Of a stretch of DNA of 64,000 nucleotides, positions 13,012 to 60,302 are shown one piece after another. The stretch is from Chiloscyllium plagiosum (taxonomy: Eukaryota). The translations under genes and the position numbers were made by a program. The notes under the pieces are model-generated. The model ran no database searches. It had not been told where the DNA came from and saw nothing but the letters and a program-made list of their open reading frames with translations. Within the stretch, counting starts at the first letter, position 1; every line of letters starts with the position of its first letter. The DNA lies in the NCBI RefSeq assembly GCF_004010195.1, contig NC_057718.1:73779931-73843930 (forward strand), in the 5' to 3' direction.

Positions 13012-13905
13012 TATGGATGTGGGTTTGCTCGCTGAGCTAGAAGGTTCATTTTCAGACGTTTCATCACCATACTAGGTAACATCTTCAGTGGGCCTCCGGA
13101 CAAAGCACTGCTTGTGTTTCCTGCTTTCTATTCATATTTTTGGGTTTCCTTGGGTTTGTGATGTCATTTCCTGTGGCGACATCATTTCCTATTATTTTTC
13201 TCAGGGGTGGTAAATGGGATCCAAGTCAATGTGTTTATTGATAGAGTTCCAGTTGGAATGCCATGCTACAAAGAGTTCTCGTGCGTATCTCTGTTTGGCT
13301 TGTCCTAGGGTGGATGTGTTGTCCCAGTCGAGGTGGTATCCTTCCTTATCTGTATGTAAGGATACTAGTGAGAGAGGATCATATTGTTTTGTGGCTAGTT
13401 GATGTTCATATATCTTGGTGGATAGTTTTCTGCCTGTTTGTCCAATGTAGTATTTGTTACAGTTCTTGCACAGTATTTTGTAAATGACATTAGTTTTGCT
13501 TGTTGTCTTTCAAGTTGATTAGCTGCTGTTTTAGTGTGCTGGTGGGTTTGTGGGCTACCATGATGCCAAGGGGTCTGAGTAGTCTGGCAGTCATTTCCGA
13601 GATGTCTTTGATGTAGGGGAGAGTGGTTAGGGTTCCTGGACATGTTTTGTCTGCTTGTTTGGGTTTGTTGTTGAGAATTCGGCAGACTGTGTTCATTGGG
13701 TACCCAGCCTTTTTGAATACACTGTATAGGTGATTTTTCTCTGCTCTGTCGTAGTTCCTCTGTGCTGCAGTGTGTAGTGGCTCATTGAAATAATGTCCTA
13801 ATGCAAATTCGTTTGTGGATGTTGGGATGATTGCTTCTGTAGTTCAATATTTGGTCCAAATGTGTTGTTTTCCTGTAGACACTGGCTTGAAGTTCCGCAT
13901 TGGAA
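13012..13905 (-). mobile_element. Penelope-like element 3' fragment
   Basis: Frame TLPYIKDISEMTARLLRPLGIMVAHKPTSTLKQQL is typical of the PLE RT to GIY-YIG linker; pLTR with degenerate hammerhead motif at 13053-13092. Confidence 0.85.
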
Positions 13906-42692: not shown

Positions 42693-42790
42693 TGAAACTT
42701 TATTGCTGGAATAGCACAGCAGGTCAGGCAGCATCCAGGGAACAGGAGATTCGACGTTTCGGGCACAGGCCCTTCTTCAGGAATGAGCAG
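42693..42790 (-). mobile_element. Short Penelope pLTR-like insertion with minimal hammerhead motif
   Basis: Minus strand attc-CTGAAGA-a-gggc-ctgt-gccc-GAAAC-GTC-gaat; 9-bp TSD tatctaaat. Confidence 0.85.
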
Positions 42791-44360
42791 TATCTAAATG
42801 CCCATGCTGTCGAACTAGCAGCTGTAGCTTAATGAAGTCAGCCACCCCGATCTGTTCCCTTCACCCGCAGATATGTACTTTGATAGCATATATATGTGCA
42901 ACAGCCTCACTGAAGTTTTACCATTATGGGAAGCTAGAGGTTTTATTTCTGCCAATGGGAAACCCCTATTATCAGTCTCCTTATTAAAGTATGTACTACA
43001 GGCCGTCAACGGAAGGAAATATGGCATAATTAATGTTAGGAGCCACCAGAAAACATCCTCAGAAAGTAACCACAGAGCAGATGAGTTAGCTAAGCAAGGT
43101 GCTCGTGTAGGGGAATTCTGGCAGCCACCCACAAGAGAGCAGCCAAATACAGTGCTTGTGAGCCAAACGAACATACAGGGCCTTAGACAAACACAACACT
43201 AATAATTCCTGAAACAGATTTTGGAAGAGTGCTTATGATAAATGGAAAGGTTCCTTACAGGTACAGGATGGATTAGTTTTAAAGGCAGGGGTTTATGTAC
43301 TTCCAATTCAAGACAGAAATCTGATCATATGTCAATACCATGACGGGCATGGGCACCAGGGAATTGAGGCCACTGCCGAACGATTGAAAGAACTGTGTTG
43401 GTGGCCCAAGTTACATAGAGAATTGTAATCCAGATGGGTATGCTCAAAAGGGAGAACTGAGGCACATCCATCCAGTGGAAGTGCCCTGGATAATTGATTA
43501 CATAGGTTCCCTTCCACCATGTAGAAACAGATTTACCTATATTCTACTCATCATAGATACATTCACAAAATGGGTTGAGGCTTTTCCTATTAGGATAAAT
43601 ACAGCCAAAACAACCGCAAAAATCCTAACACAATAGGTATTTACAAGATGGAACCTACCCCGCAGTATCGAGTTAGATCAGGGAATCCATTTCACCGGCC
43701 AAGTCATGCAAAACGTGATGACTATGCTTGGCATTAAGCAGACATTCCACATTGCACACCACCTCCATTCTAGTAGGATTGTGGAAAGGATGAACTGCAC
43801 CCTAAAAGGAATGATTAGGAAGATGGTGCAGCAGAACAATAAAACCTGGGACACAGTACTTCCCGTTTGTCCTTATAATGGTATGGAACATCCATCTCCC
43901 GGTCCACAGGGTATACCCACATTCCCTAATAACAGGCCAATCCATGAAAGCGGTCAATTGCCCATTCGGTCTCAACCTCACAGAACCTGTCCTTACTCAT
44001 GAAAAAGCGGAGCAGCAGCTCAACGAAAATATCAAGGCTACTAAGTTATCAGCAGCTGTCAGATTAAGGACCGAAAGGAAATTAAGTAAGGCTTACTTCA
44101 ACAGTAAAAGCAACCTTATCGAATACCCTATAGGACAGCAGGTGATGCAACAAATATACAACTCTAGTTCCTTTCTCTCCCCTATATATTCAGATCCCCA
44201 CACGCTGTGGTGAATAAGGTGAGCCCCTCAGAATACAAGATTCTACTAGCCACAGGAAAGACAGGCTGGTACCATATAAACCAATTAAAAGCCTATGGCA
44301 CTCAACATAGCAACTTTCACCACCTTGAGATATGCATGGTGGATGACACTAGCCTAGAGG

Positions 44361-45163
44361 TGTTATGGACCAGGCCAGACCCTCTCAAAATATTTTAAGA
44401 AGGTAGCCCAGACCCTATCTTTTTCTTATTTTGAAGGCAGATGTGAAGTGGATACTCCAGGTATGATGCAGCTGGTCAAAGCACTCGGCTATAAGCAAAC
44501 CAGCATTAATTTAAACACAATAGTTGAAACATGAACGAAAGAAAGCGGAATTTAAAATAGCTTAACTATTGGAAAACTTAGCCAACTTGATACAGCAATT
44601 TAACTAAGGAGCTGTTCCAACTCTTGTAACATAAATACATGAGGAGAAAGTGAGGTCTGCAGATGCTGGAGATCAAAGTTGAAACTTTATTGCTGGAACA
44701 GCACAGCGGGTCAGGCAGCATCCAGGGAACAGGAGATTCGACGTTTCGGGCACAGGCCCTTCTTCAGGATTCCTGAAGAAGGGCCTGTGCCCGAAACGTC
44801 GAATCTCCTGTTCCCTGGATGCTGCCTGACCCGCTGTGCTGTTCCAGCAATAAAGTTTCAACTAACATAAATACATCCCTTGGCAAATGGTAAATTCAAA
44901 CTCAGGTTCTTACAGGCAGGAGAGATTTCAGAGAGAAAATCAACCAGGGATCATCTGCTGGAACACTGTAGCAGTTTCTGCTTCAGTTACCAGCAGCTTC
45001 TCTGCTACAAATAAACCAAACTAGAAAAAAAAACCTGAACTGGGAGAACTGGTTACTCCCCTGTCACTGTTAAAGTAGATATTTCAGCACCTCTGCCTTT
45101 ACAACCTCTCTTGAAAAAAGCCCAAGGACAAAATAACCTTTTTAAAGTGACAGCATCGTTACA
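44361..45163 (-). mobile_element. Solo LTR between ERV pol and env
   Basis: tgtta...ttaca ends; unrelated to the flanking ERV frames; no clear TSD; orientation tentative. Confidence 0.6.
44641..44863. mobile_element. Palindromic Penelope pLTR-like insertion with a hammerhead motif on each strand
   Basis: Perfect 93-bp inverted arms 44677-44769 and 44771-44863; TSD taacataaatacat (44627-44640 and 44863-44876). Confidence 0.9.
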
Positions 45164-45566
45164 CAAATTACAAGACCAAGGTTAGCCCAGATACCAAGGT
45201 CACCCCTCGACACATGCTCTCAGTCAGACTGCACCCATGACAAAATTTATGCTCTCCCATTACTACCACCAACTGCACCTTCAACACCAAGGGTCCCCCC
45301 AGATGATGTAATTGATGTAAAGGACTTTATCTCTCTAACAGATTGGAACAACTTGCTAGTGACTGATAGCATTGATGTGTTACACACTCCCAACAGTCTA
45401 GACACAATAGAACTCCCCAATAACTCCCTGATAGACAATGAAATCAAAAGACCCCATATACTTATAACTCAGACCTCAAACAGTGTATCCACAACATGGG
45501 TATGAGGCAATATTAGGAAACTAGTGTGGACAAAGGTAAGACAGACTGAACTGGATCGTGGGATAG

Positions 45567-59540: not shown

Positions 59541-59691
59541 GGAACATCAGCAAAGCCTGCTGCATCCATGCATGCCTAATTATCTCTGAAACTGACACCT
59601 CTGTGGAAACATCAACAGTAGAACATTTGTGAGCACAAGCTGGTGAGCACTTCACTGCAAGTGCTCTTCAGCTAGCTATTGAAGAAACACA

Positions 59692-59824
59692 GGGGAAAGT
59701 GAGGACTGCAGATGCTGGAGATCAGAGCTGAAAATGTGTTGCTGGAAAAGCGCAGCAGGTCAGGCAGCATCCAAGGAGCAGGAGAATCGACGTTTCGGGC
59801 ATGAGCCCTTCTTCATGAAGAAGA
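59692..59824 (-). mobile_element. Short Penelope pLTR-like insertion with hammerhead core
   Basis: Same family as 44641; 14-bp TSD attgaagaaacaca; ends in a 16-bp fold-back cttcttcatgaagaag. Confidence 0.85.
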
Positions 59825-59859
59825 ATTGAAGAAACACACTCAGGCTGACACACTACTGG

Positions 59860-60302
59860 GTTTGCAGATGACACCAAAATTGGAGGTGTAGTGGACAGTG
59901 AAGAAGTTTACTCAGAGTACAACGGTATCTTGATCAAATGAGCCAATGGGCTGAGGAGTGGCAGAGCTGGAAATGTGTTGCTGGAAAAGCGCAGCAGGTC
60001 AGGCAGCATCCAGGGAACAGGAGAATCGACATTTCGGGCATAAGCCCTTCTTATGCCCGAAACGTCGATTCTCCTGTTCCCTGGATGCTGCCTGACCTGC
60101 TGCGCTTTTCCAGCAACACATTTCCAGCTCTGATCTCCAGCATCTGCAGACCTCACTTTCTCCTGAGGAGTGGCAGATGCAATTTAGATAAATATAAGGT
60201 GCTACATTTTGGAAAGACAAGTCAGAGCAGGACTTATACACTTAAGTTTTAGGTCCTGGGGAATGTTGCTAAACAAAGAGACTTTGGAGTGCAGGTTCAT
60301 AG
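59860..60302 (+). mobile_element. CR1 RT fragment
   Basis: FADDTKIGGVVDSEE remnant; interrupted at 59966-60162. Confidence 0.8.
59966..60162. mobile_element. Palindromic Penelope pLTR-like insertion, ribozyme core truncated
   Basis: 83-bp arms 59962-60044 and 60050-60132 with one mismatch; TSD ctgaggagtggcaga (59951-59965 and 60163-60177). Confidence 0.88.

What the first reader, a model, noticed from the sequence alone, without database searches (positions are those of the whole stretch)
44641..44863. TSD-flanked perfect palindrome encoding a minimal hammerhead ribozyme on both strands
Seen: a 187-bp perfect inverted repeat (93-bp arms, 1-nt centre at 44770) inside a 14-bp TSD. From the centre it reads gattc-CTGAAGA-a-GGGC-ctgt-GCCC-GAAAC-GTC-gaatc. 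That is stem I, the CUGAnGA core, stem II, GAAA, a loopless ACGU helix III and a GUC cleavage triplet. Known: Penelope pLTRs carry such minimal type I hammerheads, which act as dimers, and PLEs often have inverted pLTRs. Inference: this is a tiny non-coding insertion made only of the ribozyme-bearing terminus, with a ribozyme motif in either polarity. Identical arms suggest it is young. Caveat: a read-through transcript would fold into a long hairpin that masks the ribozyme and could instead be dsRNA substrate.
Basis: partly seen in the sequence, partly recalled or inferred. Interest (0 to 1): 0.8.

Follow-up and report, generated by a model that had tools for sequence, protein, structure and literature searches.

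The report
Palindromic stub of a Penelope retrotransposon
This palindrome is one of about 2,400 near-identical head-to-head stubs of a Penelope-like jumping gene in this genome; it is ordinary as an object, but the stubs as a group likely record how these elements insert, with two short DNA copies started at two fixed points of the RNA and joined where they stop.

Summary
In detail: 93-bp perfect arms, a 14-bp target-site duplication (TSD), and a minimal type I hammerhead core on both strands. Corrections: the insertion is 222 bp (44641-44862), 36 bp of it is a non-palindromic 'tail', and the minus-strand hammerhead has a mismatched stem I. The arm is the terminal repeat (pLTR) of an abundant Neptune/Nematis-type Penelope-like element (PLE); other copies run into RT and GIY-YIG coding sequence. 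The genome holds 19,339 exact arm ends and 2,378 similar palindromes, with differing centres, so this is no separate mini-element. Population pattern: in 24 of 24 sampled palindromes one end carries the tail and the other does not (both tails: 39 of about 2,378 genome-wide; about 584 expected if independent). 59 of 100 sampled copies stop within 10 nt of the hammerhead's first base and only 2 near its cut site. Best reading: twin priming from the two target nicks at the two internal RT start sites, run-off at the RNA 5' end, then end-joining. The ribozyme is a passenger here, predicted to be buried in a -200 kcal/mol hairpin. The architecture is in print; the run-off mechanism was not found in my searches and is inferred.

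The parts
44627..44640 (+). Left copy of the 14-bp target-site duplication
   Evidence: target single in paralogous host copies
44641..44676 (-). 36-nt PLE 'tail' (sense positions +96..+131, counted from the first base of hammerhead stem I); its outer end is site B
   Evidence: 44 of 100 sampled ends lie at this end +/-1 nt; in tandem copies the sequence continues into the element body
44677..44769 (-). Tail-side arm: pLTR sense +3..+95
44736..44771 (-). Minus-strand hammerhead motif: core 44767-44761, predicted cut between 44740 and 44739; stem I mismatched because its 5' strand is the junction
44769..44770 (.). Head-to-head junction: the two copies share the single A at 44769 (1-nt microhomology); 44770 is the formal centre
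   Evidence: sequence; the same centre occurs in L069 and L098
44769..44862 (+). Tail-less inverted arm: pLTR sense +1..+94; its outer end is site A
   Evidence: 37 of 100 sampled ends lie within 0-4 nt of this point
44768..44805 (+). Plus-strand minimal type I hammerhead: stem I ATTC/GAAT, core CTGAAGA 44773-44779, stem II GGGC/GCCC, GAAA, palindromic ACGT, predicted cut after C44800
   Evidence: cleavage not tested
44863..44876 (+). Right copy of the TSD; its first T also matches pLTR +95
42828..45100 (+). Host: decayed multi-copy LTR-retroelement-like relic (RNase H at 42828-43199, weak integrase core at 43637-43999); extent not mapped
   Evidence: Pfam RNase_H E 5e-10; rve E 0.0078, below cutoff; 40 scored paralogs at 76-83% identity

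Best explanation
This is a TSD-flanked, head-to-head pair of short terminal-repeat copies of an abundant Penelope-like retrotransposon, likely made in one insertion event by twin priming. [quoted passage not shown] Shown: the anatomy, the TSD, family membership, the one-tail rule, the pile-up at +1 and the variable centres. Inferred: all enzymatic steps and the identity of +1 as a transcript start. The copy is predicted to be a dead end, and its hammerheads inactive inside a long hairpin.
For: Family: 19,339 exact 28-mer ends and 2,378 palindromes of span 170-200; the arm runs into a GIY-YIG ORF end in L022/L024 and RT is present in L026. Two fixed outer ends: 43 of 100 ends at site A (0-12 nt) and 57 at site B or beyond. 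One-tail rule: 24 of 24 pairs are A/B (two of them, L043 and L063, look like duplicates of one event); genome-wide 2,357 tail-on-one-given-side matches and 39 both-tail matches versus about 584 expected if independent. Either site alone can start a TSD-flanked single arm: 10 A and 12 B among the 22 single arms with a TSD of 8 nt or more, and 18 of those 22 end at +/-4 nt of +1 (counted). Inner ends: 59 of 100 fall in a 10-nt bin, 12.1 ends per 100 nt at risk versus 0.3-1.2 elsewhere; 2 of 100 lie near the cut site. Centres: 13 microhomologies of 1-3 nt, 2 blunt joins, 9 insertions of 1-135 nt; L109 has both arms ending at +1 with 135 nt of filler between them; the A arm is longer in 15, the B arm in 6, equal in 3. 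Published in vitro work on an anole PLE shows both strands cut and extended, two adjacent internal RT start sites bounding the tail, uncleaved RNA as main template and a predicted dimer (PMC11167929). Geometry agrees: site B is 119 nt from stem II here versus 111-118 there. +1 sits in TCA+1TTCC, an initiator-like word (consensus recalled), 166 nt before the ORF's ATG.
Against: No transcript 5' end was observed: the only raw RNA run with reads (poly(A) single-cell, about 2% read) showed no start pile-up, and 94% of laid reads run on into unlike sequence, i.e. embedded copies. The genome-wide drop across +1 is weaker than in the sample: 12,127 matches at +3..+24 versus 5,825 at -9..+13. The second pattern also catches sister subfamilies; of the first 100 listed +3 matches, 29 read through (hand count). 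The sample is the first 17.7 Mb of one contig, not a random draw. In vitro the two strands showed no difference in RT start site, so the strict A/B pairing is not explained by that assay. The anole element is Poseidon clade and this one has the Neptune/Nematis linker. +1 is also an ATT, the anole enzyme's preferred cut word.
Confidence: 0.65

Rival explanations
1. Fold-back self-priming: a single cDNA (or an antisense template) folds back on itself and is copied to give the inverted arm, as proposed for rotifer PLEs.
For: Proposed in PMC3846280 (passages). Arms are usually near-identical (0-2 mismatches in 22 of 24 pairs; the other two have indels), and a rare variant is shared by both arms in 3 palindromes, including this one.
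Against: The window's centre would need a 1-nt loop. Either arm can be the longer one (15 A, 6 B, 3 equal). L109 has 135 nt of filler between two arms that both end at +1. Site A also starts TSD-flanked single arms. Four palindromes carry a two-variant haplotype on one arm only, which needs two different template copies.
Confidence: 0.13
2. Twin priming is right, but the inner boundary at +1 is made by endonuclease cutting at ATT or by RT arrest at the hammerhead, not by the RNA 5' end.
For: The anole PLE enzyme prefers 5'-ATT-3' near the ORF-pLTR junction; +1..+3 is ATT; no transcript start was seen. Sister subfamilies also show copies beginning at ATTC (by eye).
Against: Another ATT on the opposite strand near the cut site, and the AT-rich run near site A, gather few inner ends (2 of 100 and none scored). 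A structural arrest would be expected at the 3' edge of the hammerhead, not after it (inference).
Confidence: 0.15
3. A self-propagating non-autonomous palindromic mini-element (MITE-like or retrozyme-like) whose two-way ribozyme is functional.
For: High copy number and narrow size range; some centres recur, including this one (L069, L098) and one 3-nt join seen four times; 224-bp tandem units recur at several loci.
Against: Centres differ across copies. The stub lacks the ORF-start sequence that the anole protein needs (first 172 nt of the ORF), and only 365 copies carry 21 nt beyond the tail. The hairpin masks both cores and the minus-strand stem I is broken. The ends are unequal, not terminal inverted repeats.
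Confidence: 0.04
4. Post-insertion rearrangement or assembly artefact: a longer inverted insertion lost its middle, or the assembler mirrored one arm.
For: Some palindromes show internal deletions (window 59962-60164). No public read set was laid across the centre.
Against: TSD-flanked single arms end at the same +1 boundary without any partner arm. A mirror artefact would not give one tail, a clean TSD and an unpaired centre in thousands of loci.
Confidence: 0.03

Closest known systems
EN+ PLE insertion units with an inverted 5'-truncated pLTR and a one-sided 30-40-bp tail (Craig et al. 2021, PMC8557442; Arkhipova et al. 2013, PMC3846280)
   Same: Head-to-head pLTRs, tail at one end only, short TSD, microhomology joins.
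   Different: Reduced to the minimum, with no ORF sequence at all. The one-tail rule is quantified here (24 of 24; 39 of about 2,378 with both), and inner ends pile up at one position.
[quoted passage not shown]
   Same: 4-bp stem I, extra A before stem II, G-C closing pair, palindromic loopless helix III. That paper already reports paired motifs 100-700 bp apart on opposite strands in Schistosoma and many solo motifs from truncated PLEs.
   Different: Stem II is 4 bp rather than 7-8. The two motifs here overlap at their 5' strands and one is damaged. Activity untested.
Poseidon element of Anolis (PAc), internal initiation at two sites (Frangieh et al. 2024, PMC11167929)
   Same: Two fixed outer ends bounding a tail; similar distance from stem II to the distal site; read-through of the uncleaved ribozyme.
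   Different: Different clade (CX4CXXC linker here); the ATG lies after the tail (+167), not at stem II; in the genome the two sites are paired one per end, whereas in vitro no strand difference was seen.
LINE-1 twin priming and retroviral minus-strand strong-stop DNA (recalled, no call)
   Same: Two primers give a 5' inversion; priming near the RNA 5' end gives a short run-off cDNA.
   Different: L1 twin priming inverts non-overlapping segments and leaves a poly(A) tail; here both copies cover the same 93 nt and there is no poly(A). Strong-stop DNA is tRNA-primed and is not integrated.
Metazoan non-LTR retrozymes (Cervera and de la Pena 2020, PMC7229834)
   Same: Short, non-coding, type I hammerhead, linked to PLEs.
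   Different: Retrozymes are head-to-tail tandems with canonical ribozymes that yield circular RNAs; this is a head-to-head pair homologous to an autonomous PLE end.

Membership tests
EN+ Penelope-like element (fragment of) | Arm is contiguous with a C-terminal GIY-YIG ORF in other copies | tested here: met
   L022 and L024 arms run into the ORF end; L022:2296-3045 hits Pfam GIY-YIG, E 1e-4, above cutoff
EN+ Penelope-like element (fragment of) | Reverse transcriptase in the same family | tested here: met
   L026:1707-2513, next to an identical arm, hits RVT_1 at E 1.1e-7; longer homologs carry RT plus GIY-YIG (P0005). That RT stretch may come from a sister subfamily, and no intact full-length copy was read in one piece.
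EN+ Penelope-like element (fragment of) | CCHH zinc finger with two cysteines between GIY and YIG | tested here: met
   IIYCIRCSRCGLLYIG ... EHL ... QHF in the L022 translation; definition
EN+ Penelope-like element (fragment of) | pLTR with an optional 30-40-nt tail, tandem or inverted arrangement, TSD | tested here: met
   36-nt tail and 14-bp TSD; partial tandems
Neptune/Nematis clades of PLE | CX2-5CxxC linker between RT and EN | tested here: met
   CNRRRCNTC in L022; definition in PMC8557442
Neptune/Nematis clades of PLE | RT phylogeny places it in the clade | not tested
   No reference set was built, so Neptune versus Nematis is not resolved
Penelope/Poseidon clade | No CX2-5CxxC linker | tested here: not met
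   Linker present
Minimal type I hammerhead of PLEs | CUGAnGA, extra base, stem II, GAAA, NUH cut site | tested here: met
   Both strands; 0 hits in 5 shuffles
Minimal type I hammerhead of PLEs | Paired stems with compensatory change; palindromic helix III | tested here: met
   Across three families in this genome: stem II GGGC/GCCC, GGAG/CTCC, GTTAC/GTAAC; helix III ACGT versus AGCT; stem I ATTC/GAAT versus TCAC/GTG; loop II varies. The automatic alignment was off by one column, so no formal covariation count was run.
Minimal type I hammerhead of PLEs | Intact stem I in this copy | tested here: inconclusive
   Met on + strand; A-A mismatch on - strand
Minimal type I hammerhead of PLEs | Self-cleavage as a dimer | not testable with these tools
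   The cofold minimum is a stem-II-swapped duplex (-19 kcal/mol); a partial active-type dimer (own stem II plus intermolecular ACGU, stem I left open) scores -16.3. Not decisive.
Rfam hammerhead families | Covariance-model match | tested here: not met
   No hammerhead family at E<=10 over 44000-45500
MITE / non-autonomous DNA transposon | Terminal inverted repeats at both ends and a fixed internal sequence | tested here: not met
   One end has a 36-nt overhang; centres differ
Non-LTR retrozyme | Head-to-tail tandem units with a canonical type I hammerhead | tested here: not met
   Head-to-head single unit with a minimal hammerhead

The most novel reading that the evidence does not exclude
Penelope-like elements integrate through a two-primer complex in which the two target nicks are obligately assigned to different RT start sites (one tail, one tail-less), and most events end as strong-stop run-offs at a transcript start that coincides with the first base of the hammerhead. 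The inverted pLTR, the one-sided tail and the thousands of solo hammerheads in animal genomes would then be one phenomenon, and full-length copies would need a template jump or the downstream pLTR. The palindromic helix III might pair the two template RNAs.
Probability: 0.45. Interest if true: 0.65.

Novelty: new member of a known kind. Interest (0 to 1): 0.38.

Why it matters
The single locus matters little: it is a dead stub among thousands. The family matters because how PLEs make tandem and inverted ends is stated to be unresolved (PMC8557442), and this genome gives thousands of young events with two countable rules (one tail per insertion; inner ends at the hammerhead's first base) that a reconstituted system can test directly. 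It also warns that perfect ribozyme-centred hairpins in shark-like genomes will be mis-called as MITEs or miRNA precursors (Rfam's best hits were miRNA models). About 2,400 long perfect hairpins could be a source of double-stranded RNA, which I did not test.

Tried and rejected
Rfam search for a hammerhead: none. Ribozyme cleavage as the source of the inner ends: rejected, 2 of 100 ends near the cut site. Site A as a poly(A) site (it follows AATAAA by 8-9 nt): rejected, because older copies without AATAAA end at the equivalent point (59962-60164) and no A-tails are seen. A splice acceptor at the boundary: rejected, no common upstream exon follows +1. Expression: no RNA holder listed; X20 gave no reads; X19 reads come from embedded copies on both strands with no start or end pile-up and none lay on the window's left flank; I draw nothing from this on transcription or cleavage. 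Automatic alignment of hammerheads from three families was misregistered and not used for pair counts. One RNA versus two as template: unresolved; 3 palindromes share a rare variant on both arms and 4 are discordant. Literature: 10 searches; 'Penelope + strong-stop + reverse transcription + GIY-YIG' and 'Penelope + palindromic + non-autonomous + shark + hairpin' gave 0 papers, and 'Penelope-like + twin priming + inverted' gave 2 listings that look off-topic and were not read. Lunse et al. (PMC5785218) is not held; subscription papers, Repbase and Dfam were not searchable.

Full report
1. Observation. The window holds a 222-bp insertion at 44641-44862 between two identical copies of TAACATAAATACAT (44627-44640, 44863-44876), with 93-nt perfectly complementary arms around 44770. 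In 10 of 11 paralogous copies of the host repeat the two flanks abut with the target present once, and both window copies share differences from those paralogs, so the duplication arose at insertion. The first 36 nt are outside the palindrome. A CTGAAGA-A-GGGC-CTGT-GCCC-GAAA-CG-TC motif occurs on both strands. Stem I is intact on the + strand and carries an A-A mismatch on the - strand. Rfam finds no hammerhead. My descriptor finds 165 contexts in 530 kb of fetched DNA, which is enriched for this family, and none in 5 shuffles; three families show compensatory changes in stems I and II and a palindromic helix III (ACGT or AGCT).

2. What it is. The arm is the pLTR of a PLE. In L022 and L024 it continues into the end of a GIY-YIG ORF, and L026 has an RT next to an identical arm. 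The endonuclease has the CCHH finger and a CX4CXXC linker, which the Penelope/Poseidon clade lacks; my first guess of Poseidon was wrong. The closest named homologs are from carpet sharks and a ray. Counting from the first base of stem I (+1): stem II +13, predicted cut after +32, site A +94/95, site B +131, ATG +167. The window copy is +131 to +3 on the minus strand joined to +1 to +94 on the plus strand through one shared A.

3. Abundance. A 28-mer of the arm end has 19,339 exact matches (control 0). Palindromes spanning 170-200 bp number 2,378. Only 365 matches carry 21 nt beyond the tail. The window has three more copies.

4. Population rules. I analysed the first 100 listed 28-mer matches on contig C1, all 100 of them. 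Outer ends are bimodal: 43 at site A (37 within 0-4 nt) and 57 at site B or beyond (44 at 36-38 nt; 2 internal to tandems). The 24 pairs with both 28-mers exact are all A/B; 8 further inverted copies with only one exact 28-mer were not scored, and L043 and L063 look like duplicates of one event. The script found a 12-17-nt TSD in 19 of the 24. Genome-wide, 1,205+1,152 matches have the tail on a given side and 39 on both, against about 584 expected under independence; the three patterns differ a little in stringency. At least one of the 39 (L139) continues into a tandem copy and ends at site A, so its outer ends obey the rule. Inner ends: 59 of 100 fall in a 10-nt bin around +1 (28 at +1 or +2), 2 near the ribozyme cut site, 15 further upstream. 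Genome-wide the count falls from 12,127 (+3..+24) to 5,825 (-9..+13); the second pattern is not subfamily-specific, and 29 of the first 100 listed +3 matches read through (hand count). The drop is real but smaller than my sample suggests. Centres are 13 microhomologies, 2 blunt joins and 9 insertions, several of which look copied from the arms; L109 holds 135 nt of filler between two arms that both end at +1.

5. Mechanism. In vitro, the anole PLE protein cuts and extends both strands, starts RT at two adjacent internal sites that bound the tail, uses uncleaved RNA and is predicted to be a dimer (PMC11167929; I read the main text; supplement 2 gave only labels; supplements 1 and 3 were not read and may bear on 5' ends). 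Applied here, one nick primes at B and the other at A, both cDNAs pass through the hammerhead and stop at +1, and the ends are joined. +1 lies in an initiator-like word (consensus recalled), and Drosophila Penelope has an internal TATA-less promoter with Inr and DPE in its pLTR (PMC2377424, passages), so I read +1 as the probable RNA 5' end. That step is inferred: the RNA reads available could not show a start. Fold-back self-priming (PMC3846280, passages) fits the identical arms but not the 1-nt centre, the filler case, either arm being longer, or the four haplotype-discordant palindromes. Both arms here share a variant found on both arms in only 3 palindromes, so both came from the same source element; one RNA versus two is not resolved.

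6. Fate and age of this copy. A read-through transcript folds into one hairpin (-200 kcal/mol, z -28.9), which would bury both cores. The stub lacks the ORF-start sequence that the anole protein needs. Arms and TSDs are identical, so it is young. That fits an empty allele, but the letters were not shown.

7. Comparison with what is known. Inverted 5'-truncated copies and a one-sided 30-40-bp tail are described for PLEs, and their origin is called undefined (PMC8557442, passages). Minimal hammerheads in pLTRs, many solo motifs and opposite-strand pairs 100-700 bp apart are described (PMC4209133, Results and Discussion read). Dimer cleavage I know only through a review (PMC6765202, passages). 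Retrozymes differ (PMC7229834, passages). I found no paper describing the +1 pile-up or twin priming in PLEs, but the library lacks most subscription papers and repeat databases. Earlier AI notes on this genome reached the same reading; I saw them after my analysis, and they are not independent evidence. Two notes from other genomes put breakpoints at the cut site instead, so the +1 rule may not be general.

8. Verdict. Observation confirmed with corrections; interpretation partly supported. New member of a known kind. Interest 0.38: low for the locus, moderate for the testable insertion rules that the family shows.

Noticed in passing
window 42693-42790: Single tail-less arm of the same young subfamily with a 9-bp TSD (TATCTAAAT), inserted in the same host relic 2 kb upstream; it has an intact native stem I.
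   Followed up: partly
window 59691-59825 and 59962-60164: Two older-subfamily copies: a tailed single arm with a 12-bp TSD, and a one-tail inverted pair that lacks its centre, with a 14-bp TSD.
   Followed up: partly
window 13048-13095 (minus strand): Minimal hammerhead of a third family (5-bp stem II, longer loop), also seen in L074.
   Followed up: partly
L133-L136, L158-L159 and further places listed: A 224-bp head-to-tail unit with the same junction recurs at several loci (up to five matches in a row at 194-224-bp spacing on C8). It could be a tandem derivative that yields hammerhead-cut monomers, retrozyme-like.
   Followed up: partly
L109 (G000:C1:17444263-17444583): 135 nt of non-element DNA captured between two arms that both end at +1.
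   Followed up: partly
L004, L006, L015, L016: Palindromes with a two-variant haplotype on one arm only, showing two different template copies in one insertion.
   Followed up: partly
window 44425-44640 on run X15: A contig identical to the left flank stops matching exactly at the end of the TSD: possible empty allele, i.e. a polymorphic insertion.
   Followed up: partly
window 42828-45100: The host is a decayed multi-copy LTR-retroelement-like relic; its paralogs are about 80% identical, so it is much older than the PLE stubs inside it.
   Followed up: partly
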